A stretch of DNA of 27,188 nucleotides from a virus, in IMG/VR virus record IMGVR_UViG_3300001480_000091; one strand, given 5' to 3'. The translations under genes and the position numbers were made by a program. This document shows, one piece after another, positions 1 through 27,188 of the stretch. The notes under the pieces are model-generated. The model was given only the letters and a program-made list of their open reading frames with translations. It was not told where the DNA came from and did not search any database. Within the stretch, counting starts at the first letter, position 1. Each line of letters opens with the position of its first letter.

Positions 1-117
1 CATTTAACACATTTTTAACTGCTTTAAAGTTAATTGCTTTACTTTTAGTCATTTTACTGCTCCTTTCACAAATTATGGGGGTATTTGCATGAATTTGCAC
101 ATTTTTCAAAGGCCCTT
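1..117. repeat. Left copy of an exact 117-bp direct terminal repeat, identical to 27072-27188
   Basis: Read directly: catttaacacattttt...ttcaaaggccctt occurs at both ends of the window. It contains the first 52 nt of the small-terminase gene (ATG at 50-52 on the minus strand) plus its leader. Confidence 0.97.
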
Positions 118-162: not shown

Positions 163-504
163 CTAATTTTTTTTGATTAGCTCCCCATTTTCATTAAACA
201 TTAATCCAGATCTAGTAACTTGATCTTTATGGTGTTCTTCTTCATGACAATCTTTGCAAATACCTTCTAAGTTACCTTCATCTAATGCTATTGAATCATC
301 ATAAACATTTATATTATCTAAATATATTTTATGATGGACTATTCCTGTTCTTCTTTTTTCTTTTGGAATCCATTTACTAATACCATCAACATATACAGGC
401 TTACCACATCTATTACATAATAGGTTTTGTTTCAACCAAACATTCTTTTTTACTTGTTTCCATGCTTTAGAATTATAAAAATCTTTTCTAACTCCATAAC
501 TCAT
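163..504 (-). CDS. HNH endonuclease, packaging-associated type, adjacent to the terminase
   Basis: 113 aa with CNRCG...HHKIY...N...CKDCH (zinc-ribbon CxxC pairs flanking His-Asn-His). It lies directly upstream of terS, as in HNH-dependent cos phages. Confidence 0.9.
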   Translation of the reverse strand: MSYGVRKDFYNSKAWKQVKKNVWLKQNLLCNRCGKPVYVDGISKWIPKEKRRTGIVHHKIYLDNINVYDDSIALDEGNLEGICKDCHEEEHHKDQVTRSGLMFNENGELIKKN

Positions 505-761: not shown

Positions 762-980
762 CTATCCAAATAATCTTCTTACATCTTCTTCAGTTCCTAT
801 TTGTTCATTTTCTTCTACTGAACTAATTAGAATATTCATTAAAGATACAAAAGACATATCTTTCATTTCTTCAATAGATATTCCTAATCTCTTTGCTAAT
901 GCTATAACTTCATATTCATCTACAGGCTCATTGCTTTTGTTATTGTGGGGAAGTTTCTTATATTCCCCTTGAAATGGGTG
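762..980 (-). CDS. Open frame without its own start, a putative frameshift extension (gpT-like part) of the 958-1296 product
   Basis: 72 sense codons (HPFQGEYKKLPHNN...ISIEEMKDMSFVSLMNIL...RRLFG*) in a genome where random frames close quickly. There is no ATG/GTG/TTG before codon 39. It overlaps the end of ORF 958-1296 in the +1 frame, and its stop sits inside the next gene's RBS. Confidence 0.4.
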   Translation of the reverse strand, partial: HPFQGEYKKLPHNNKSNEPVDEYEVIALAKRLGISIEEMKDMSFVSLMNILISSVEENEQIGTEEDVRRLFG

Positions 981-1296
981 CTACTGCTAATGATATTACT
1001 TCATTTATCCAATTAGTATTATCAAATAGTCCATCAATACCTTTTAAGAAATCTTCAAATGTAGTAACTTGACTTGGATCTGCTTCTTCTATCATTACAT
1101 AAGATATTCTTAATACTATATCAGTTAAGTCATCAATAGATGTTATCATTTCAGATTCTTCTTTATCTTGTAATTGAGTTAGATCTTGTAAGTCTTTTAG
1201 CAGCTTCCTTCCTGTGTCATTCTTATACTTGAATTGAGTATAAGCACTAGACTTCATTTCATATTCTTTGTTTCCTATCTTGATTATCCTTTTCAT
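958..1296 (-). CDS. Acidic 112-aa protein, tail-assembly-chaperone (gpG)-like by size, composition and two-frame architecture
   Basis: The start is taken at MKRIIKIGNKEYEMK (ATG 1294-1296), preceded by AAAGGAGGAAAA. The longer ORF-track start at 1431 runs through a non-coding structured region. The TAC call is an inference, not a homology result. Confidence 0.55.
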   Translation of the reverse strand: MKRIIKIGNKEYEMKSSAYTQFKYKNDTGRKLLKDLQDLTQLQDKEESEMITSIDDLTDIVLRISYVMIEEADPSQVTTFEDFLKGIDGLFDNTNWINEVISLAVAPISRGI

Positions 1297-1625
1297 TTTT
1301 CCTCCTTTGACATTTTTGTGTCTTATCAACCCACATAGCATAATGCCGAGAAAAAGACACCCTTTCCCATCCATATAGGCAGTCCTTCCCACTTTATGAA
1401 TACCATTAAGAATAGATAGCAAAAAAATCAATAAAAAAATAAAAGGGAAATTAATATGAAAAAATCTATCTATCCTTAATGCTACTCAAAAAGAGTAGCA
1501 ATCAAAGGCACTTCCTCAAATGATAGGATGCAGCAGGTGTCCTTTTATAGACACCACTAGGAATAGATAGAATTATTTAAATCAGATGCTAATGGTCAAA
1601 ATAATTTATCTGTTCCTAATGCTAT
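1297..1625 (-). promoter_or_regulatory. ~330-nt non-coding, structured, repeat-rich element (candidate late-operon control region or cis-acting RNA)
   Basis: This is the largest ORF-free stretch in the genome and is visibly richer in G+C. It has four TARGRAYAGATAR boxes at 1407-1419(+), 1466-1478(-), 1558-1570(+) and 1606-1618(-). Hairpins lie at 1536-1555, 1481-1499 and 1318-1360. Confidence 0.5.
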
Positions 1626-2018
1626 CTATAAACATCTTCTTTTATATTTGTATTGTATTAGAGGTTTACCTTTTGAGTTTTTATCCCATTTATGAACTTT
1701 CTCAAATTCAGTTAATAAGTATTCTATTATTTCTCTTTGTTCTCTTGTAGGTTCATATTCTTGTTGATTTACATACTTAAATATCCTATTTATAGCATTA
1801 TATGTTTCTATGTCTTTATACTCAATAAGATGTAGATATTGATGTGCTACAGGCATTAATATTGCTCCATTTGGTATTATAGGTTTTCCACCATCTTCTC
1901 TTTTTACTATGTGATGAAAAGTCAAATCTTTTCTAACAAGTCGATAGTTCATCCAATCCATATTTGATAATGGTTGATAAATTTTTAACATCTCTCTTGT
2001 TATTTGCTTCATATCCAC
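1626..2018 (-). CDS. Second HNH-family nuclease-like protein (cysteine-free type)
   Basis: 130 aa with LTFHHIVKREDGG...NGAILMPVAHQYLHLIE, a His-His...Asn...His...His pattern typical of small phage HNH proteins. Confidence 0.7.
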   Translation of the reverse strand: MDMKQITREMLKIYQPLSNMDWMNYRLVRKDLTFHHIVKREDGGKPIIPNGAILMPVAHQYLHLIEYKDIETYNAINRIFKYVNQQEYEPTREQREIIEYLLTEFEKVHKWDKNSKGKPLIQYKYKRRCL

Positions 2019-2103: not shown

Positions 2104-2475
2104 TTACTTTCTTAAGTAACTTCTTAATTTCTTTGGTATAGTTGTTCTATCATAATTCATCTTTTCAGCTACCTTCTCCCAACTTAATAAATCTAGAAAT
2201 CTATATCTCATTATTTGTCTTATTTCACTATCTTCTACTGATTCAATATAACTTTCTATTTTCAGATATTCTTCTAATGCTGATACTCTTGCACTTATCC
2301 ATTTCTCTATTATAACTACTCTTTTTTCTTGGATAGATTCAGTTGATGTTATTCCTGATATTTCTTTATCTAGTTTAGTTGCAGATACACCATATCCAAA
2401 TTCAGCAAGTCTTTCTTCTAGGTCTTTTATTTCTTTTCTTAACCAATAATATTTACTTAATTCTTTTTCAGTCAT
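2104..2475 (-). CDS. Late-gene transcriptional regulator, sigma-70 region-4 / DUF1492-like (RinA/ArpU/Ltr-type position)
   Basis: 123 aa. The N-terminus has YYWLRKEIKDLEERL. The C-terminal HTH reads IRQIMRYRFLDLLSWEKVAEKMNYDRTTIPKKLRSYL. It sits at the end of the early region, upstream of HNH/terS. Confidence 0.65.
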   Translation of the reverse strand: MTEKELSKYYWLRKEIKDLEERLAEFGYGVSATKLDKEISGITSTESIQEKRVVIIEKWISARVSALEEYLKIESYIESVEDSEIRQIMRYRFLDLLSWEKVAEKMNYDRTTIPKKLRSYLRK

Positions 2476-17830: not shown

Positions 17831-20014
17831 CTAAGTATAAATAGTATCAGTAACTGTCTTTACAATAAATTTTCCATACTTTTCATCATCCATAACTATA
17901 TCCATATCTTGTAATGCTTCTTTCATTGCACTTGCCATTAGTCTATAATTAGCATCATAAGATACACTTGGATTTATTGTTGGATTTACACTAGCTTCTA
18001 TTCCTGCATTTAATTGTTTCATTGCTACATCTACATCTTTTAATGCTTGTGGTATTCCTTCTTCAATACCCTCACCAATTCCAGCACTGATTTGAACTCC
18101 TATAGTATCTCTCATTAATGTTGATGGAGAATGAATACCAAATATCTTTTTGAATTTAGCAGTTATTTGTTCTTTTACTTCATTTACTTTATTATTCAAA
18201 TAACTTCCTATTCTACCAAATCCATCACATATTCCTTTGATGATATTCTTTCCTAATTCTCCCCAATTTGTATTAGCAATGCTATTTCTAAATCCTGTTA
18301 CCATTGCTCCAATTATATTAGGTATTGCAGTTAACATTTGAGGTATTGCTTCTATTAATCCTTTTCCTAATGCTAACATTAATTGTAATGCTGCTCCTAT
18401 AATTTTAACTATCATGTCAGGTCTAGTTAATGTTTCTACTAACTTTTGAATTACTTTAGGTAACATTGCTACTAATTGAGGTATTGCATCTACAATTCCT
18501 TCTATTAATGCTACTAATAAATCAATTCCTGTTTCTATTATTAATGGTAAGTTTTCTATTATTGTATTTATTATTGTTTCTATGCATTGAACTAATGTAG
18601 GTATCAATTGAGGTATAGATTGGATTATTCCTTGAACTAATGCAACTAATAATTGGATACCCATCTCAATTATTGTAGGTAAGTTTTCAGTTATAAATCC
18701 TACTATAGCATTTATGATTTGACTTATTGCATTTGATATTCCTTCCATATTAGAAGTAATCATACTCAATAATGCATTAATCATATTTGTAATTGCAGTT
18801 AATAATTGAGGTAATAAATCCAATAATAATTGTGCTATTTGTGGTATTAATGTTTGTAATAATGTTACTACCCCACTCAATATACTTGGTGCAAGTTGTA
18901 TTATTGCATTTCCTACATTATTAAAGACATTAGTTATAGTTTCTGCTAATGCTTCAGGACTACCACTACCATTTAAGAAGTTATCAAATGCTGCTTTCAT
19001 TGAGTTAACTGAACCACTTATTGTTTTTTCAGATTCTTTAGCAGTTGTTCCTGTTACTTCCATTTGTTCTTGAATTACATGGATTGCTTCATAGACATCA
19101 CTTAAATTATTAATGTCATATTTAACACCTGTTAATTTTTCAGCATCTGATAATAATCTTTCCATTTCAGTTTTAGTTCCACCATAACCTAATTTAAGAT
19201 TATCTAGCATTGTATAGTTTTGTTTAGCAAATCCTTGATATGCGTTTTGAATACTAGACATATCAGTTCCAAATTTATTTGCATTATCACTCATATCTCT
19301 AAATGCCATATCAGCTACATCTGCTGCTTTTTCAGTATCTCCACCTAGTGATTGTAATAATGATGCACTAAAACTTGTAACACCTGCCATATATTCATTT
19401 GCACTTACACCTGCAGTCTTATAGGCATTTTTTGCATTCTCTATTACTTTATCAGAACTCTCTTTAAATAATGTTTCTACACCACCTAAATTTTGTTCTA
19501 AATCAGCATAACTTTTAACACCTGCTCCTACTAATCCTGCTAATGCTCCACCTATTGCAGTTGTTACTTCCATCATTTTTTTAGCAACATCTTTAGCAAT
19601 TTCTCCTACTTTTTTAAGTCCTTCTCCTAACTTACTTAAATCAATCTTTGTTGTGCCTTTTAGTTCTTCATTCATGTTTTTTAGAGCATTTTCACTTTTA
19701 GCAATTTCTACACTTAATCCTCTATATTGTTCTTTTTGTTCTTCAGTCAAATTAGCATAATTACCCATTTGTCTTTGTGCTTCTTTTAATGTTTCTAATC
19801 TTTGTGTAGTTGCTTCAATATTCTTTTTTAATACATCTTGTTTTTGTGCTAACAATTCAGTATTCTTTGGATCTAGTTTTAATGCTTGATTTAATTGTTT
19901 TAATTCAGAATTAGTTGAATATACTACTTTATTTACATCTTTTAATGCTGATTCTAATTTTGTTGTATTTCCACCAATCTCAATAGTAATTCCCTTAATG
20001 TTCTTACTTGCCAT
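17831..20014 (-). CDS. Tape measure protein
   Basis: 727 aa with an N-terminal coiled coil, a hydrophobic repetitive core and the FGIHSPSTLMRD motif. It is the largest tail gene. Confidence 0.92.
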   Translation of the reverse strand: MASKNIKGITIEIGGNTTKLESALKDVNKVVYSTNSELKQLNQALKLDPKNTELLAQKQDVLKKNIEATTQRLETLKEAQRQMGNYANLTEEQKEQYRGLSVEIAKSENALKNMNEELKGTTKIDLSKLGEGLKKVGEIAKDVAKKMMEVTTAIGGALAGLVGAGVKSYADLEQNLGGVETLFKESSDKVIENAKNAYKTAGVSANEYMAGVTSFSASLLQSLGGDTEKAADVADMAFRDMSDNANKFGTDMSSIQNAYQGFAKQNYTMLDNLKLGYGGTKTEMERLLSDAEKLTGVKYDINNLSDVYEAIHVIQEQMEVTGTTAKESEKTISGSVNSMKAAFDNFLNGSGSPEALAETITNVFNNVGNAIIQLAPSILSGVVTLLQTLIPQIAQLLLDLLPQLLTAITNMINALLSMITSNMEGISNAISQIINAIVGFITENLPTIIEMGIQLLVALVQGIIQSIPQLIPTLVQCIETIINTIIENLPLIIETGIDLLVALIEGIVDAIPQLVAMLPKVIQKLVETLTRPDMIVKIIGAALQLMLALGKGLIEAIPQMLTAIPNIIGAMVTGFRNSIANTNWGELGKNIIKGICDGFGRIGSYLNNKVNEVKEQITAKFKKIFGIHSPSTLMRDTIGVQISAGIGEGIEEGIPQALKDVDVAMKQLNAGIEASVNPTINPSVSYDANYRLMASAMKEALQDMDIVMDDEKYGKFIVKTVTDTIYT
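18425..18695 (-). repeat. Tandem ~44-aa (132-nt) internal duplication in the tape measure (approximate bounds)
   Basis: ENLPTIIEMGIQLLVALVQGIIQSIPQL... is followed by ENLPLIIETGIDLLVALIEGIVDAIPQL... The DNA word ggtaagttttc recurs ~132 nt apart. Confidence 0.6.
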
Positions 20015-20038
20015 GATATTCTCCTTTCTTATAAATAC

Positions 20039-20064
20039 TAAAAAAACTACCCATAAAGAGTAGT
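20039..20064 (-). terminator. Weak intrinsic terminator/attenuator between the major tail and tape measure genes
   Basis: The minus strand reads ACUACUC-UUUAU-GGGUAGU (7 bp including a G-U wobble) followed by U6-7. A second perfect 7-bp hairpin lies at 20071-20088. Confidence 0.45.
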
Positions 20065-20093
20065 CTTTTTACTACTCATAAGAGTAGTAGTTA

Positions 20094-20654
20094 TTATAGA
20101 TTTGCCTCATATACTTCATCAAAGAATGCTGTATATGCAGCTGTATTTGTTCCATCTTCTTCCATTTTTACCATTACATTTTGATCTGATATTCTAGAGT
20201 TAATAGTAATGTTTAATTCATCTGTAACAGGTGTTTTAGATGTTTCTATTGTTTGAGAAGCTACTGATGGTCTAGATACTGAACATTGATAGAACCAATA
20301 TCTTGTTCCTTTTGAATCTCCTTCAAATTGGCATCCTAATGCAAAGTCTTTAAATGAATCTCCACTATTTTCAATGAATGCTCCATTTCTATCTTTTAAT
20401 TGTCCTAATATTTTTTCTCTAAAATCATTATTGATTAATGCAACTTCTAATGTTCCTGTATAACCTTGATTAGCATAATCACTAAAATATTTTGTATTAT
20501 CAGCAAAGAAATCAGCACTTTCTCCTTCAGGATCTAGTGATAGATTAACTGCTCCTGGTAATGTAAATATATCTCCATATGTTACTTGACTTCCATTATA
20601 AGTAATTGGAGCAATATGAACATTTGATAATCCAAATTTTACTTTATTTGCCAT
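20094..20654 (-). CDS. Major tail protein
   Basis: The start is taken at MANKVKFGLSNVHIAPI (ATG 20652-20654, SD AAGGAGGTAAAC). It is 186 aa and sits upstream of the tape measure. Confidence 0.85.
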   Translation of the reverse strand: MANKVKFGLSNVHIAPITYNGSQVTYGDIFTLPGAVNLSLDPEGESADFFADNTKYFSDYANQGYTGTLEVALINNDFREKILGQLKDRNGAFIENSGDSFKDFALGCQFEGDSKGTRYWFYQCSVSRPSVASQTIETSKTPVTDELNITINSRISDQNVMVKMEEDGTNTAAYTAFFDEVYEANL

Positions 20655-21974: not shown

Positions 21975-23147
21975 CTAAACTGTTTCTGGTTTAGCAATTA
22001 ATGTAAATGCTTTATCAGCTACTGCATTAGTTCCTACATATTGTCTACCTAAAATTCTAATTAAATCAGAAGTCATTAGAGTCTTATCATCAAATTTAAG
22101 ATCAACTCCATCTCCTTCTGGGTAGTTAGCTAAAGTACCATGATCGAAATCTCCTACTATAGCATATACTTGTCCAGTTGTAGCTGTTCCATATGCTGGT
22201 AAAGTATTATTAAATCTAACTCTTATACCATCAAATATATCAGCAGCATAATTATTAGCTAATTGTACTCTCTTAAATTCAGCATAAGTTAATTTATTCA
22301 TAACTATAGTATAATCTCCAGCTTCATCACTAAGATTAGCTATAGCATTGAAAACAGTTCCCATTGCTGGAGCTTCTGTAATCTTATTAGCAGATACAGT
22401 ATCATAAATACCATCACTATTAGCTGTTAATGATTGTGGTAATGCAGCAATTTTAGCAATTAAACTATCAGCTGTCTTTTTAACAATTTTATATGTTAAT
22501 TCATCATAAACATATCTTAGGAAATCTTCTCCTCGTAATCCATATACCTCATCTGAAATAGAAATCCATTTCTTTATAGAAACTGGCTTTAATTCTACAA
22601 TTCCTAATACTAAACTTTCTTCAGTAACTGCTCCAGATCCTTCTGCATGTTCTACAGCATCAGTAGCACTTGCTTCAAAGTTTACTTTTAAATTACCTTG
22701 TACAGATACTTTTCTAACTAATGACATAATGTCATCTTTTTCCCATGCTGTTTTAACAATATCATATACAAAATCTGGTACTGCTACTGTTGATGATGAT
22801 CCTGTAATAGTACCAGCATTTTCTGATAATAATGCTCTCATTTCTTCATTATTACCTTTTACATATTCTGCAAAAGCATTAATATACTTTTCAGAGTTTC
22901 TAAATTCTTTCATTTCTTCATTCATACTTTTTACCTCAACTTTCTTTACTTCTTTTACTGCAAGAGATTTTTCTTCCATTTCTTTTGCAGTTTCTTCATT
23001 TTTTTCTTGTTCAGCTATTTGTTCAACTTCTTCATTTAAAGCATCAGCTTCTTTTTCTAATTCTTCTACTTGTTCAGTAGTTTCAGCATTTTCAACTTCT
23101 TCTCTAAGTTCAACTTTTCTAGCTTCAATTTCTTCTTTTCTTGACAT
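21975..23147 (-). CDS. Major capsid protein, HK97 fold, with an N-terminal coiled-coil (delta/scaffold-like) domain
   Basis: 390 aa with an E/K-rich first ~80 aa and a typical HK97-family body. It has a strong SD (AAGGAGGG) and lies downstream of the prohead protease. Confidence 0.92.
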   Translation of the reverse strand: MSRKEEIEARKVELREEVENAETTEQVEELEKEADALNEEVEQIAEQEKNEETAKEMEEKSLAVKEVKKVEVKSMNEEMKEFRNSEKYINAFAEYVKGNNEEMRALLSENAGTITGSSSTVAVPDFVYDIVKTAWEKDDIMSLVRKVSVQGNLKVNFEASATDAVEHAEGSGAVTEESLVLGIVELKPVSIKKWISISDEVYGLRGEDFLRYVYDELTYKIVKKTADSLIAKIAALPQSLTANSDGIYDTVSANKITEAPAMGTVFNAIANLSDEAGDYTIVMNKLTYAEFKRVQLANNYAADIFDGIRVRFNNTLPAYGTATTGQVYAIVGDFDHGTLANYPEGDGVDLKFDDKTLMTSDLIRILGRQYVGTNAVADKAFTLIAKPETV

Positions 23148-23884: not shown

Positions 23885-25115
23885 TTTCATTTCCTCCTTC
23901 TTCATCTGTGTTATTAGTATCAGTAGAATCATTACCTAACTGATAATCATTAGCTATATTACTGTCTATATGGTTTAAATCTTGAAGTATAACATCTCCA
24001 TCTTCTCTTGGTGCTAAATTAAACACTTCTCTTAATTCATTTACTGTCATAATGTTATTTGCATATCTTAATAATTCTATTTTTGTCTTATTACTTGCAT
24101 ATTGTAATCTATTACTTTCAAATAATATTTCATGTCCAAAATACTTTTGTGTTGAAGTGAATATTTTATTTGAAAACTCTAGACTCATTTGTAATCCTAT
24201 AGGTTCTAATATTGATTCATAAAAAGCATTCCATTGATCTTCTGAATATTTAGATTGGATAATTTCTTCACTTATACCAAAATAAGATAATAATTTATCA
24301 TCTATGCTCTTTACTTGACTATCACTAGCTGTAGTTGGCTCTATTTTTACAGGAGTAAAATCTGTTGTTGCATCTAATCCACCTATTCCAGATTTATCTC
24401 CACCTTTAACAAAATCAGAAACAAATTGATCTCTCATTTTCTTAACATCTTCTGGCTTTAACATTGCCTTTGTAGATTTGATTACACCTTTAATTGATTG
24501 AGTAGTTTTAATTGCATTTACAATTCCTTCATCCAATACATGTTTAATAGATAATGTTTTTATAATTGGTTTAGGACTACCACCAAATAATCCATCTTCT
24601 CCTACAAATCTTGTTAAATGAATACAATCATCATATGCTACAAATCTTTCTTTAGTTCTGCCAAACTTGAACTTTAACCATATTTGTCCTTTATATTCAT
24701 AATATTTTCCTTCACTAAAATTTAATGGATATAATCCTGTTACATTCAAATTTTCATCTCTTTGAACATAAATAAAAGAGTCATTATATAACTCTAAATT
24801 ACTTATTACTTGATAATAAAATTGATAAGCATTTTGAACTTCATTAGGTCTTTTAGCTAACAAAGAATACAAATTATCTTTTAAATTTTCCATTTTACCA
24901 GCAAAGTTTCTTATATGTCTAGGATGCATTTTAGCTCCATTTCTTGCTATAGCATCTATGCACTTTAATACATCAGGATCATTTTCAAAATCTCCCTTAT
25001 ATGGAGTAAATACAGCTTTTCTATCATCTAATATTTTTACTTCTGTTGCTGTTTCTGGTGCAGTTGTATTCTTATCATTACCAAATATGTTGCTAAACCA
25101 ACTTCTTAGTTCCAT
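23865..25115 (-). CDS. Portal protein (HK97 family)
   Basis: 416 aa with a TAATG overlap with terL and an acidic C-terminus. It sits between the terminase and the protease. Confidence 0.92.
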   Translation of the reverse strand: MELRSWFSNIFGNDKNTTAPETATEVKILDDRKAVFTPYKGDFENDPDVLKCIDAIARNGAKMHPRHIRNFAGKMENLKDNLYSLLAKRPNEVQNAYQFYYQVISNLELYNDSFIYVQRDENLNVTGLYPLNFSEGKYYEYKGQIWLKFKFGRTKERFVAYDDCIHLTRFVGEDGLFGGSPKPIIKTLSIKHVLDEGIVNAIKTTQSIKGVIKSTKAMLKPEDVKKMRDQFVSDFVKGGDKSGIGGLDATTDFTPVKIEPTTASDSQVKSIDDKLLSYFGISEEIIQSKYSEDQWNAFYESILEPIGLQMSLEFSNKIFTSTQKYFGHEILFESNRLQYASNKTKIELLRYANNIMTVNELREVFNLAPREDGDVILQDLNHIDSNIANDYQLGNDSTDTNNTDEEGGNENEGEGN

Positions 25116-26800
25116 TATTTAACCTCCTCACTAATATAATTTAAGTATTCTTGTTGTCTATTGATATAAATGACATATGCATCCATTAAAGAGGCAGCTC
25201 CATCAATTCTTTGCCTTGCTTTTTCCTTTGATAACATAATGTTTTCATTGTCATCAACTTTAACTACAACATTTGATAGATTCCACTTTAAAATTGGATT
25301 ATTGTTATAATTTATCTTTTTATCCATTAAATCAGCTTTCATTTGTTTTAATGGTGCTGATTCAGTCTTATAACCTTGTCTTATTTCTTGCATTGTAAAC
25401 CCATATGAAGTCATTTCATCACACCAAAATTGAGCATTCCAACTATCATAACCTACCCATAATGGTCTTAAGTCATTTTCTTGAACTTGTTCCAAAAACC
25501 ATGATGTTACATCATGATAATCAATTTTGGATGTTCCTGATAATCTTAATAATCCATTTTTTAACCATTTATCATATGGGATTTTATCTTCTGTAACTTT
25601 TTTCTCTAAAAAGTTAGCTGGAATCCAATACATTTGCTTTACTCTTATTTTTCCTTTTACAACACCTAATAATGTTGCACAAGTTAAGTCTGTAGTGCTT
25701 GACAAATCACATCCACCAATGCAGTAGCAATCTTTCCAATCAGAATAGATTTCTTCATTATTCAAATCTTCAAATGTAAGCCATGCATTTATACTATTTT
25801 GTCTTACATTGAAATCTTTACATAATAAGTTGACTAACTCTATTGGATTATTTTTTGCTCTTTCTACTTTTTCTCTTAAATTCTTTATTGATTTAATTTT
25901 TCCTAATGCTGGATTAGCTTTATACCAGCATTCTTCATTTGTCCATTCTTTTTCATTGTCTAATTCATAAATAATTGGTAATAGAACATCATCTTGTATT
26001 GAACCTTCTATTACTTGTGCAGCATAGTCATATTCAATATCAAATACATTTTGTCTTACAGTTCCCATAGTAGAAGTTTCTAATAATAATGGCTGTTCTC
26101 TTGCACTCATAGAATCATACATGACATCTAATAAATTTTTATCTTTCCATGCATGGACTTCATCAGCAACTACTAAATGTGCATTTAAACCATCTAATGA
26201 ATTGCTATCAGATGCTAATGCTCTAAATGATGAATCAGTAGCATCATAATATATTCCACCTATTAGACATCTTATTCTTTTTGCTAGAGATGGACTTTTT
26301 TTTATCATTTTCTTGCTTTCTTCCCAAACAATTTTTGATTGATCTCTTTTAGTAGCAATAGAATATATTTCTGCTCCACCTTCTCCATCTTTAGTAAGCA
26401 TAAAATTAGCTATTCCAGAATCTAATACAGATTTTCCATTTTTTCTAGCAACAAATAATATTGCTTTTCTATATTGTCTAAAACCTGTATCTTTATCTAC
26501 AAATCCAAACAATGCTTGTAGAAATGCTTTTTGAAATAGTTCTAATTTAAGTGGTTTTCCATTCCATTTGCCTTTAGATTGTCTACAATATTTTTCTATA
26601 AAATGAATACATCTTAAAGATTTTTTTTCATCAAAAATATAAGTATGATTTTCATTTTCTCCTGTTACTTTATTAAAAAAAGAAACCTTTTGTGGTTTCT
26701 TCAATTTTTTTACTAAATTTTTATATACTGTCTTTACTTTTATTCCAACTTTATTTGGATTTTTTTTAATCCATTCATAGTATTCTTCAATATATGTCAT
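25115..26800 (-). CDS. terL: Terminase large subunit
   Basis: 561 aa with Walker A (VARKNGKS), Walker B-like (LVVADEVHAW) and a C-terminal nuclease region. It has an ATGA overlap with terS. Confidence 0.95.
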   Translation of the reverse strand: MTYIEEYYEWIKKNPNKVGIKVKTVYKNLVKKLKKPQKVSFFNKVTGENENHTYIFDEKKSLRCIHFIEKYCRQSKGKWNGKPLKLELFQKAFLQALFGFVDKDTGFRQYRKAILFVARKNGKSVLDSGIANFMLTKDGEGGAEIYSIATKRDQSKIVWEESKKMIKKSPSLAKRIRCLIGGIYYDATDSSFRALASDSNSLDGLNAHLVVADEVHAWKDKNLLDVMYDSMSAREQPLLLETSTMGTVRQNVFDIEYDYAAQVIEGSIQDDVLLPIIYELDNEKEWTNEECWYKANPALGKIKSIKNLREKVERAKNNPIELVNLLCKDFNVRQNSINAWLTFEDLNNEEIYSDWKDCYCIGGCDLSSTTDLTCATLLGVVKGKIRVKQMYWIPANFLEKKVTEDKIPYDKWLKNGLLRLSGTSKIDYHDVTSWFLEQVQENDLRPLWVGYDSWNAQFWCDEMTSYGFTMQEIRQGYKTESAPLKQMKADLMDKKINYNNNPILKWNLSNVVVKVDDNENIMLSKEKARQRIDGAASLMDAYVIYINRQQEYLNYISEEVK

Positions 26801-27123
26801 AGTTCATCATTATCAAAATCATCAAAATTATCAGATAATTCTTTAGGAATTAATTCATATACTTGCTTTATAGTTGAATTATAATTTTTTATCATTGCAT
26901 TGTATTGAGTAATTGCTGGATTAGCTCTATCAATAAAATATTTTCCTTGATCCATCTGTGTAACTACTCCATTTTTTGTAATTTCACTTTTTAATTTTGC
27001 CATTGTTTTTTTCATGAACTCTAATTCTTTAATTAAAGCTAATCCTAACATAGACTTATCTTCTGGCATCTCATTTAACACATTTTTAACTGCTTTAAAG
27101 TTAATTGCTTTACTTTTAGTCAT
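26797..27123 (-). CDS. terS: Terminase small subunit (P27-like)
   Basis: The start is taken at MTKSKAINFK (ATG 27121-27123, SD AGGAGCAG). The track's start at 27180 lies in the leader. It is 108 aa with ...DRANPAITQYNAMIKNY... and an acidic tail. Confidence 0.82.
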   Translation of the reverse strand: MTKSKAINFKAVKNVLNEMPEDKSMLGLALIKELEFMKKTMAKLKSEITKNGVVTQMDQGKYFIDRANPAITQYNAMIKNYNSTIKQVYELIPKELSDNFDDFDNDEL

Positions 27124-27188
27124 TTTACTGCTCCTTTCACAAATTATGGGGGTATTTGCATGAATTTGCACATTTTTCAAAGGCCCTT
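27072..27188. repeat. Right copy of the exact 117-bp direct terminal repeat
   Basis: Base-for-base identical to 1-117. Confidence 0.97.

What the first reader, a model, noticed from the sequence alone, without database searches (positions are those of the whole stretch)
762..1296. A tail-assembly-chaperone-like gene pair needing a +1/-2 shift heads the packaging operon, while the normal MTP-TMP slot is empty
Seen: ORF 958-1296 (112 aa, acidic, MKRIIKIGNKEYEMKSS...FEDFLKGIDGLF...) stops at 958-960. A second frame stays open for 72 codons from 980 to the TAG at 762-764. It has no ATG/GTG/TTG before codon 39 and no SD before that ATG, and its stop lies inside the RBS of the next gene. The frames overlap only in GCA CCC AUU UCA AGG GGA AUA UAA, and frame 2 is +1 relative to frame 1. 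Candidate shift sites are CCC_A (tRNA-Pro re-pairing on CCA) or the G4 run (GGA to GGG by -2). Established: siphovirus tail assembly chaperones are made as gpG and a frameshifted gpGT from two overlapping frames of about these sizes, usually by -1 slippage, and the genes sit between the major tail protein and the tape measure. Here those two genes (20094-20654 and 17831-20014) are separated by only 79 nt of hairpins and no ORF. Inference: the chaperone has been relocated to the first position of the late operon and uses unconventional recoding. This would be an unusual gene order and an unusual shift direction.
Basis: partly seen in the sequence, partly recalled or inferred. Interest (0 to 1): 0.7.

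Follow-up and report, generated by a model that had tools for sequence, protein, structure and literature searches.

The report
Relocated tail chaperone gene, +1 frameshift
This small phage has moved its two-frame tail assembly chaperone gene from its usual place between the tail tube and tape measure genes to the front of the late operon. It appears to make the long form by a +1 ribosome slip on a rare proline codon, an unusual layout for one of the most position-conserved genes in tailed phages.

Summary
ORF1 (958-1296, minus strand, 112 aa) overlaps a 72-codon frame (765-980, stop 762-764) that is +1 relative to it and has no start codon before codon 39.

- **Conservation.** The arrangement holds in 61 distinct related loci with ORF1 45-100% identical.
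- **It is a tail assembly chaperone (G/GT pair).** A profile built only from genes lying between the major tail and tape measure genes of other phages hits exactly one open frame in the window, ORF1 (E 1e-19). hhalign between the two families gives 99.1% probability. The downstream part matches only the frameshifted frame of those chaperones.
- **It was relocated.** Phages with a tail tube protein at least 50% identical to this one have a 55-86 nt gap between the tail tube and tape measure genes. More distant relatives carry this chaperone family in that slot and shift -1 on A-runs.
- **The shift site.** It is an invariant rare CCC followed by A or T. The G4 run is not conserved, so a -2 slip there is unlikely.
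- **Accessory hairpin.** About half of the variants, including the window, have a hairpin 7 nt downstream.

The shift is inferred from comparison, not from protein data. It is a new variant of a known system.

The parts
958..1296 (-). G reading frame: the short tail assembly chaperone form (112 aa, stop at 958-960)
   Evidence: ORF and translation. phrog_709, E 1.4e-14. It is the only open frame in the window hit by a profile of chaperones from the normal slot, E 1e-19. hhalign gives 99.1% probability.
762..974 (-). T reading frame (+1): 70 codons plus TAG, read only as the C-terminal extension of the 177-aa GT fusion
   Evidence: No start codon before the conserved part. Conserved as protein in all relatives. 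Its profile matches only the -1 frame extension of the Streptococcus phage chaperones.
975..978 (-). Proposed +1 shift site CCC_A (Pro107 codon 976-978 plus the skipped A975)
   Evidence: CCC followed by A or T is invariant in 70 loci, 61 of them distinct. CCC is 4 of 190 Pro codons in the window. The shift is bounded by the +1 frame TAG just upstream and by the onset of +1 frame third-position variation.
947..968 (-). Hairpin GGGGAA-N10-TTCCCC starting 7 nt 3' of CCC; candidate stimulator
   Evidence: MFE -8.7 kcal/mol. A stem of at least 5 bp is present in 29 of 54 variants, against a shuffle mean of 2.75 and maximum of 8. Arm variants are compensatory, and the rare CCC codon is used in the 3' arm in 26 variants. 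It is absent in about 25 variants.
20015..20093 (-). Empty normal chaperone slot: 79-nt gap between the major tail and tape measure genes, with two hairpins, the second followed by a T-run
   Evidence: Sequence. The gap is 55-86 nt in all 34 measurable relatives with a major tail protein at least 50% identical.
20094..20654 (-). Major tail (tube) protein
   Evidence: phrog_88, E 7.7e-52; Pfam Phage_TTP_1
17831..20014 (-). Tape measure protein
   Evidence: phrog_58, E 9.8e-95, and many other tape measure PHROGs
2104..2475 (-). ArpU/DUF1492-like late transcription regulator upstream of the pair
   Evidence: phrog_36, E 2e-16. Conserved upstream neighbour in relatives.
163..504 (-). HNH endonuclease downstream of the pair, followed by the small terminase gene
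   Evidence: phrog_119/144; Pfam HNH. Conserved order G/T, HNH, small terminase, large terminase.

Best explanation
ORF1 and the +1 frame downstream of it are the gpG/gpGT-type tail assembly chaperone of this siphophage.

**How it most likely works**
- Most ribosomes translate ORF1 to its stop and make the 112-aa G form.
- A minority slip +1 while tRNA-Pro holds the rare CCC codon (976-978) in the P site. The tRNA re-pairs with CCA, A975 is skipped, and translation continues in the T frame.
- This gives a 177-aa GT fusion with the junction ...LAVAP-FQGEYKK....
- A GGGGAA/TTCCCC hairpin 7 nt downstream probably increases the shift in this sub-lineage.
- By analogy with lambda, G and the G part of GT coat the tape measure protein, and the T part recruits the major tail protein.

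**Evolution**
In the ancestor of this clade the gene pair moved out of the slot between the major tail and tape measure genes. It now sits first after the late regulator, upstream of HNH and the terminase genes. Its recoding signal differs from the -1 A-run slippage used by most homologues that remain in the normal slot.

**Shown:** homology, relocation, conservation of the two-frame layout and of CCC.
**Inferred:** the shift itself, its efficiency, the role of the hairpin, and the binding partners.
For: **Identity**
- The profile of the close family against 17 genes lying between the major tail and tape measure genes gives hhalign probability 99.1%, E 4.9e-19, over 108 columns.
- The profile of those normal-slot genes hits only 961-1485(-) among 431 open frames of the window, E 1e-19.
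- The close-family profile scores 24-38 bits on the Streptococcus phage 'pi2 protein 40' genes, which lie between the tail tube and tape measure genes in six phages.
- 96 of 99 family representatives are phrog_709.
- The T profile hits only the -1 frame extension of the Streptococcus genes. T domains share the ...LGxSxxDL...ATQxDxDxF end.
- In-frame G+T fusions exist (P0385, P0389).

**Relocation**
- Major tail protein at least 50% identical: gap of 55-86 nt.
- Major tail protein 39-48% identical: gap of 520-1096 nt holding this family.
- In every close relative with enough flank, the pair lies upstream of HNH and the terminase genes, and after the ArpU-like gene where that gene falls inside the fetched flank.

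**Frameshift**
- The T frame is 69-76 codons in all complete loci.
- 47 of 61 distinct loci have no ATG/GTG/TTG in the open stretch upstream of the junction.
- CCC followed by A or T is invariant although CCC is 2% of Pro codons.
- Variation switches to +1 frame third positions just after CCC.
- A precedent exists for +1 shifts at CCC in low-G+C Listeria phages (PMC5009743).
Against: - No protein data exist. The GT product and its junction are not observed.
- No slow or stop codon follows CCC consistently: the 0-frame A-site codons AUU, AUA, UUA and UUU are common. The source of pausing is therefore unclear.
- The hairpin is missing in nearly half of the variants.
- 14 of 61 loci have an incidental TTG, and some also an ATG, a few codons upstream of the junction. 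A few relatives have ATG or TTG at T codon 5. Independent T synthesis cannot be excluded in those.
- Structure searches gave no significant match.
- Pfam chaperone families are hit only below threshold.
Confidence: 0.85

Rival explanations
1. The T frame is a separate small gene translated from its own start, either non-canonical or coupled to ORF1 termination, with no frameshift.
For: Gene callers report 74-78-aa products for 161 relatives by using TTG, GTG or ATG codons 2-9 codons upstream of the conserved motif. 14 of 61 distinct loci have such a codon, and a few have ATG or TTG at T codon 5 right after the AGGGG run.
Against: - 47 of 61 distinct loci, including the window, have no start codon at all in the open stretch, which is only 1-5 codons long in 46 of those 47.
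- The first start in the window is codon 39, inside the conserved helix, and has no Shine-Dalgarno sequence.
- The ORF1 stop moves by up to 11 codons between relatives while T conservation always begins at CCC.
- Homologues in the normal slot are classical frameshifted G/GT pairs, and some are in-frame fusions.
Confidence: 0.06
2. The shift is a -2 slip of tRNA-Gly on the G4 run (AGG_GGA), not a +1 slip at CCC.
For: The window and many relatives have A GGG GA, which allows GGA to GGG re-pairing.
Against: The run is AGGCAA, GGGCGA, AGGAAC or AGAGGG in about 15 distinct relatives that keep the same +1 T frame. +1 frame third-position variation (CAA/CAG at column 22, GGG/GGC at column 25) already lies at the start of the run and inside it.
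Confidence: 0.04
3. The frame break is a sequencing or assembly error or a decaying pseudogene, and the real gene is one ordinary ORF.
For: In-frame G+T fusions exist in distant relatives.
Against: The same +1 relation is seen in 61 distinct sequences from many independent metagenomes and metagenome-assembled genomes. The junction has no homopolymer longer than 4 nt. Both frames are under protein-level constraint.
Confidence: 0.02
4. The pair is homologous to chaperones but has taken on another role connected with DNA packaging, and tail assembly here needs no chaperone.
For: Its position next to HNH and the terminase genes. The T core is a small three-helix unit that looks like a DNA-binding motif.
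Against: - G and T domains, their sizes and the low-level recoding layout are all retained.
- The tail tube and tape measure proteins are orthologous to those of relatives that keep the chaperone in the slot.
- No other chaperone candidate exists in the 27-kb genome.
- Function was not tested.
Confidence: 0.03

Closest known systems
Phage lambda gpG/gpGT tail assembly chaperone (Levin 1993; Xu, Hendrix, Duda 2004, 2013, 2014; as summarised in PMC5009743)
   Same: There are two overlapping frames of similar sizes. The second has no start of its own and is made as a C-terminal extension by low-level ribosomal frameshifting near the end of the first.
   Different: Lambda shifts -1 on G_GGA_AAG, and its genes lie between the major tail and tape measure genes. 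Here the shift is +1 at CCC_A and the genes lie about 6.4 kb upstream of the major tail gene, ahead of the terminase genes. No sequence similarity to lambda G or T was tested or found.
The 'prophage pi2 protein 40' gene plus its unannotated -1 extension in Streptococcus phages (Javan340, Javan181, IPP18, phiGBSVK-A, Javan100, Javan372), and the phrog_709 genes of IMG/VR siphophages L118-L158
   Same: Same protein family for G (hhalign 99.1%) and for T. The tail tube and tape measure proteins are related.
   Different: Those genes sit in the normal slot and shift -1 on A_AAA_AAG or A_AAA_AAA. They are annotated only as hypothetical proteins.
+1 frameshifting at CCC in Listeria phages PSA, A118 and A500 (cps and tsh genes; Zimmer 2003, Dorscht 2009, via PMC5009743)
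   Same: The host and phage are low in G+C. A rare CCC proline codon sits in the P site and a +1 slip follows. For PSA cps there is a downstream RNA structure.
   Different: In the Listeria phages the genes are the capsid and major tail protein, and the stimulator is a stop codon (CCC_UGA) or a pseudoknot. Here the gene is the chaperone, CCC is followed by a sense codon, and there is only a simple hairpin that is not universal.
Pfam Phage_p2_ORF12 (PF20962) and Phage_TAC_15 (PF21822)
   Same: Single distant family members give weak hits (E 9e-4, 0.005, 0.018). Several of the top BFVD fold matches are annotated chaperones.
   Different: No member reaches the curated cut-off, and the window protein has no Pfam hit.

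Membership tests
gpG/gpGT-type tail assembly chaperone | [quoted passage not shown] | tested here: met
   Window. In 47 of 61 distinct relatives there is no start codon in the open stretch, and the T frame is always 69-76 codons.
gpG/gpGT-type tail assembly chaperone | Gene position between the major tail protein gene and the tape measure gene | tested here: not met
   The 79-nt gap in the window holds no ORF. The pair lies ahead of HNH and the terminase genes. The feature is met by homologues in the sister clade and in Streptococcus phages, so the exception reflects relocation, not a different family.
gpG/gpGT-type tail assembly chaperone | Sequence homology of G and of T to chaperones identified by position and frameshift | tested here: met
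   G: hhalign 99.1%, E 4.9e-19; hmmsearch E 1e-19. T: only the -1 frame of the Streptococcus genes is hit, per-sequence E 1e-6 to 8e-6. The C-terminal motif is shared.
gpG/gpGT-type tail assembly chaperone | Membership of a curated chaperone family (Pfam, NCBIfam) or fold match to a solved chaperone | tested here: inconclusive
   No Pfam hit for the window protein. Only sub-threshold hits in relatives and none in NCBIfam. Foldseek against PDB found nothing. Against BFVD, annotated chaperones rank 2-4, 10 and 15; ranks 2 and 3 have E 0.35-0.6 and TM about 0.57, and the others are weaker.
gpG/gpGT-type tail assembly chaperone | G binds the tape measure protein, T binds the major tail protein, both are absent from virions, and a G:GT ratio of about 30:1 is needed | not testable with these tools
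   Needs biochemistry or genetics.
CCC-type +1 programmed frameshift (as in Listeria phage PSA) | Rare CCC codon at the shift site, with the next base allowing tRNA-Pro re-pairing in the +1 frame | tested here: met
   CCC followed by A or T is invariant in 61 distinct loci. CCC is 4 of 190 Pro codons.
CCC-type +1 programmed frameshift (as in Listeria phage PSA) | A stimulator next to the site (stop codon, rare A-site codon, or downstream RNA structure) | tested here: inconclusive
   No stop or rare codon follows CCC. A hairpin 7 nt downstream occurs in 29 of 54 variants, with compensatory arm changes, but is absent in the rest.
CCC-type +1 programmed frameshift (as in Listeria phage PSA) | Frameshift product demonstrated | not testable with these tools
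   Needs mass spectrometry or a reporter assay.

The most novel reading that the evidence does not exclude
An entire, widespread clade of roughly 27-30 kb siphophages of gut and rumen Bacilli has permanently moved its tail assembly chaperone out of the tail module to the first position of the late operon. It expresses GT by a +1 slip at a rare CCC codon, whereas most of the orthologues I found in the normal slot use a -1 A-run slip. This would be a natural demonstration of three things. Adjacency of the chaperone gene to the tape measure gene is not needed for tail assembly. Recoding signals of opposite direction are interchangeable between orthologues. Annotation by synteny systematically misses such chaperones.
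Probability: 0.8. Interest if true: 0.55.

Novelty: new variant of a known kind. Interest (0 to 1): 0.5.

Why it matters
- **Synteny rule broken.** The position of the G/GT gene pair just upstream of the tape measure gene is one of the most dependable synteny rules in tailed-phage genomics. It is used to annotate chaperones that have no detectable sequence similarity (PMC12859696 states the rule and raises an atypical location as an open possibility for cluster DJ phages). Here a whole clade breaks the rule while keeping the protein family, the two-domain design and low-level recoding. The chaperone therefore acts in trans wherever it is encoded.
- **Annotation.** phrog_709, now labelled 'unknown function', and the Streptococcus 'pi2 protein 40' genes can be annotated as tail assembly chaperones with an unannotated frameshift extension.
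- **Recoding.** The data give a matched set of orthologues using -1 A-run slippage or +1 CCC slippage, useful for studying how recoding signals are exchanged. They also give a compact +1 cassette (CCC_W plus a hairpin 7 nt downstream) that can be tested in low-G+C Firmicutes.

Tried and rejected
- **tblastn and megablast against cultured phages.** The fused protein and the first 8 kb of the window found nothing. Only a distant family member (P0317) reached cultured Streptococcus phages.
- **Pfam on the window proteins.** No hit.
- **Structure.** AlphaFold models were of moderate quality only: G pLDDT 72, T pLDDT 66. Foldseek against PDB gave nothing. Against BFVD it gave only non-significant matches, although annotated chaperones were enriched at the top for G and the T search was uninformative.
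- **One alignment of the fusion with G-only and T-only homologues.** MAFFT misaligned it, so it was not used.
- **Ungapped alignment of the junction (A5).** It does not register the 3' arm of the hairpin because loop lengths differ. I counted stems with my own script instead of the covariation tool, so the covariation evidence is descriptive only.
- **Rfam and tRNA scans of the window.** Nothing found, and no phage-encoded tRNA-Pro.
- **Literature searches.** No description of a relocated chaperone gene turned up. This covers only the library held.

Full report
**Setting**

The window is a complete small siphophage genome.
- Its first and last 117 nt are identical, so the unit is 27,071 bp. 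G+C is 27.3%.
- All genes run on the minus strand.
- In transcription order they are: small terminase, large terminase (25115-26800), portal, protease, capsid (21975-23147), neck and adaptor, tail completion, tail terminator, major tail protein (20094-20654), tape measure protein (17831-20014), Dit, Tal, fibre, holin, endolysin, early genes, an ArpU/DUF1492-like regulator (2104-2475) and an HNH-like gene (1626-2018).
- A 330-nt spacer follows, then the pair in question, an 81-aa K/E-rich protein (507-752), HNH (163-504), and the small terminase again.

**1.

- ORF1 (958-1296) is 112 aa.
- The +1 frame is open from 980 to the TAG at 762-764 (72 codons), and its first possible start is codon 39.
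- The TAG lies in the TAGGAGGA ribosome binding site of the next gene.
- The frames overlap in GCA CCC ATT TCA AGG GGA ATA TAA.
- The gap between the major tail and tape measure genes is 79 nt. It consists of two hairpins, the second followed by a T-run.

**2. The two-frame layout is conserved, so it is not an error**

- ORF1 has 455 homologues in metagenome proteins. All of the 120 best hits listed are 112-152 aa and cover only the G part (60-67% of the 177-aa fused query); none is fused to a T part.
- I collected 72 related loci from IMG/VR, GTDB genomes and metagenomes. Of these, 70 retain the junction and 61 are distinct there.
- In all of them the T frame is +1 relative to G. It is 69-76 codons long in all 57 complete cases.
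- In 47 of 61 there is no ATG, GTG or TTG between the last upstream +1 frame stop and the junction. That open stretch is only 1-5 codons in 46 of those 47.
- The other 14 carry an incidental TTG that arises from the E-L/V-A coding of the G frame (five also have an ATG further upstream). Gene callers use codons of this kind to report 74-78-aa proteins.
- The T peptide is conserved from the junction onward: P(F/Y)QG(E/N)YK ... DEYEVIALAKRLGISIEEMKEMSFVSLMNILISS ... ATQEDIDKYFG. In contrast, the G frame beyond SP(I/L)S varies in sequence and length, by 4-15 codons.

**3. What it is**

*Weak direct evidence.* ORF1 matches phrog_709 ('unknown function'), and 96 of 99 representatives of the wider family do too. 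There is no Pfam hit. Fold searches were not significant, although annotated chaperones rank 2, 3, 4, 10 and 15 in BFVD.

*Streptococcus phages.* A distant family member (P0317) finds the 'prophage pi2 protein 40' genes of 11 Streptococcus phages.
- In the six I inspected, the gene lies directly between the tail tube gene and the tape measure gene. It is followed by an almost unannotated gap of 180-280 nt; two records call a ~40-aa ORF there.
- That gap carries a -1 frame extension reached through A_AAA_AAG or A_AAA_AAA. The extension reads ...ESYLSCCKETGLSIDDLKHISIGMAL...KATQADFDxF.
- The close-family G profile scores 24-38 bits on these proteins.
- The T profile hits only that -1 frame.

*Relatives found through the major tail protein.*

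| Major tail protein identity to the window | Loci | Gap between the major tail and tape measure genes | Content of the gap |
|---|---|---|---|
| At least about 50% | 34 measurable | 55-86 nt | No ORF |
| 39-48% | 38 measurable | 520-1096 nt | A member of this family (34-121 bits) |

Among the normal-slot loci whose extension I examined, it lies in the -1 frame after an A-run in most, and where the full extension was read it typically ends ...ATQEDFDKF.

*Profile tests.*
- hhalign of the close family against 17 normal-slot proteins gives 99.1% probability, E 4.9e-19, over 108 columns.
- A profile made only from normal-slot genes hits one of 431 open frames in the window, ORF1, at E 1e-19.
- In-frame G+T fusions also exist (P0385, P0389).

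The pair is therefore a gpG/gpGT-type chaperone, and the window holds no other candidate.

**4. Relocation**

Wherever the fetched flank of a close relative reaches far enough, the order is the ArpU-like regulator, sometimes the second HNH, G/T, sometimes cargo genes, HNH, small terminase, large terminase, portal. The pair is never next to tail genes. Together with the identity split in section 3, this indicates a single translocation at the base of the clade. The clade is found in rumen and gut metagenomes and in Bacilli metagenome-assembled genomes.

**5. How the long form is made**

*Bounds on the shift.* It must occur after the +1 frame TAG that ends at window position 981 and before the point where variation becomes third-position in the +1 frame (CAA/CAG, GGG/GGC, TAT/TAC, AAG/AAA).

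*The site.*
- The only invariant slippery element in that 12-nt window is CCC followed by A or T.
- CCC accounts for 4 of 190 proline codons in this genome, against CCA 110 and CCT 76. It is nevertheless fixed in all 61 distinct loci.
- A +1 slip moves tRNA-Pro from the poorly decoded CCC to CCA or CCU. The same logic is documented for Listeria phages PSA, A118 and A500 (PMC5009743).
- The predicted product is 177 aa with the junction ...LAVAP|FQGEYKK....

*The G4 run.* It is not conserved (AGGCAA, GGGCGA, AGGAAC), so the -2 alternative is unlikely.

*The hairpin.*
- In the window, GGGGAA(968-963)-N10-TTCCCC(952-947) starts 7 nt after CCC, with an MFE of -8.7 kcal/mol.
- A stem of at least 5 bp at this place occurs in 29 of 54 variants. 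Shuffles give a mean of 2.75 and a maximum of 8.
- The arm pairs vary in a compensatory way: GGGGAT/ATCCCC, GGGAAT/ATTCCC, GGGGAGTT/AACTTCCC, GGGGACT/AGTTCCC and GGGGAG/CTCTCC.
- The 3' arm uses the rare CCC codon in the T frame in 26 variants.
- It is absent in about 25 variants, mostly the more divergent ones. I regard it as an accessory stimulator, not part of the core signal. The sequences are related, so these counts are descriptive.

*Gaps in the mechanism.* No slow codon follows CCC and the phage carries no tRNA. The efficiency is probably low, as expected for a G:GT system. This is inference.

**6. Comparison and novelty**

- The system works like lambda G/GT and belongs to the same functional class by homology to genes in the normal position.
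- It fails the positional criterion because it was moved.
- A +1 direction is a known minority state: 350 forward against 2368 backward cases in SEA-PHAGES (PMC10885494). One normal-slot relative (L135) also appears to need +1 at GCT CCC G.
- My searches of the held library found no description of a chaperone pair displaced from the tail module. A recent paper treats an atypical location only as a hypothesis for phages lacking a recognisable chaperone (PMC12859696).
- I rate it a new variant of a known kind, of moderate interest.

**7. Limits**

- The frameshift, its site and its efficiency are inferred from comparative sequence data only.
- The host and its tRNA-Pro set are unknown.
- The binding partners are assumed by analogy with lambda.

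Noticed in passing
window 1-117 and 27072-27188: The first and last 117 nt are identical, so the contig is a circular assembly and the genome unit is 27,071 bp. The small terminase gene starts inside the repeat.
   Followed up: partly
window 20015-20093 (-): The 79-nt gap between the major tail and tape measure genes consists of two hairpins. The second (aaaaagactactc...gggtagttttttt) looks like an intrinsic terminator or attenuator placed directly after the major tail gene.
   Followed up: no
window ~60-190: A G+C-rich island lies between the HNH stop and the small terminase start. It contains a 12-bp hairpin (157-186) in an otherwise 27% G+C genome. It may be the cos or pac region of an HNH-dependent packaging system.
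   Followed up: no
window 1626-2018 (-); L001 1088-1482, L002 3129-3523, L015 3942-4330: The second HNH-like gene is intact in the window and in L003. In several close relatives (L001, L002/L018, L010, L015, L016) it is split over two frames near codon 58. It is either a decaying gene or another recoding site.
   Followed up: partly
P0130, P0218 and relatives; L029 and L055, T codon 5: Some relatives have ATG or TTG in place of the conserved Tyr at T codon 5, right after the AGGGG run. An independent T-only product is conceivable in those lineages.
   Followed up: no
L135 3365-3442; L132 3400-3421: Two relatives with the chaperone in the normal slot also need a +1 change of frame. L135 does so at GCT CCC G and may be an intermediate state. 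L132 does so on an A8 run, which may be a homopolymer miscount.
   Followed up: no
L073-L078 (Streptococcus phages Javan340, Javan181, IPP18, phiGBSVK-A, Javan100, Javan372): The 'prophage pi2 protein 40' genes are annotated as hypothetical proteins. They are tail assembly chaperones with an unannotated -1 extension reached through A_AAA_AAG or A_AAA_AAA. phrog_709 is labelled 'unknown function'.
   Followed up: yes
L007, L008/L009, L015, L048, L051, L054, L060, L065 and others, between the T stop and HNH: Many relatives carry 1.3-2 kb of extra cargo between the chaperone pair and HNH. In L007 and L008 it looks from its sequence (untested) like a nucleotidyltransferase gene. The site downstream of the pair seems to be a hotspot for insertions.
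   Followed up: no
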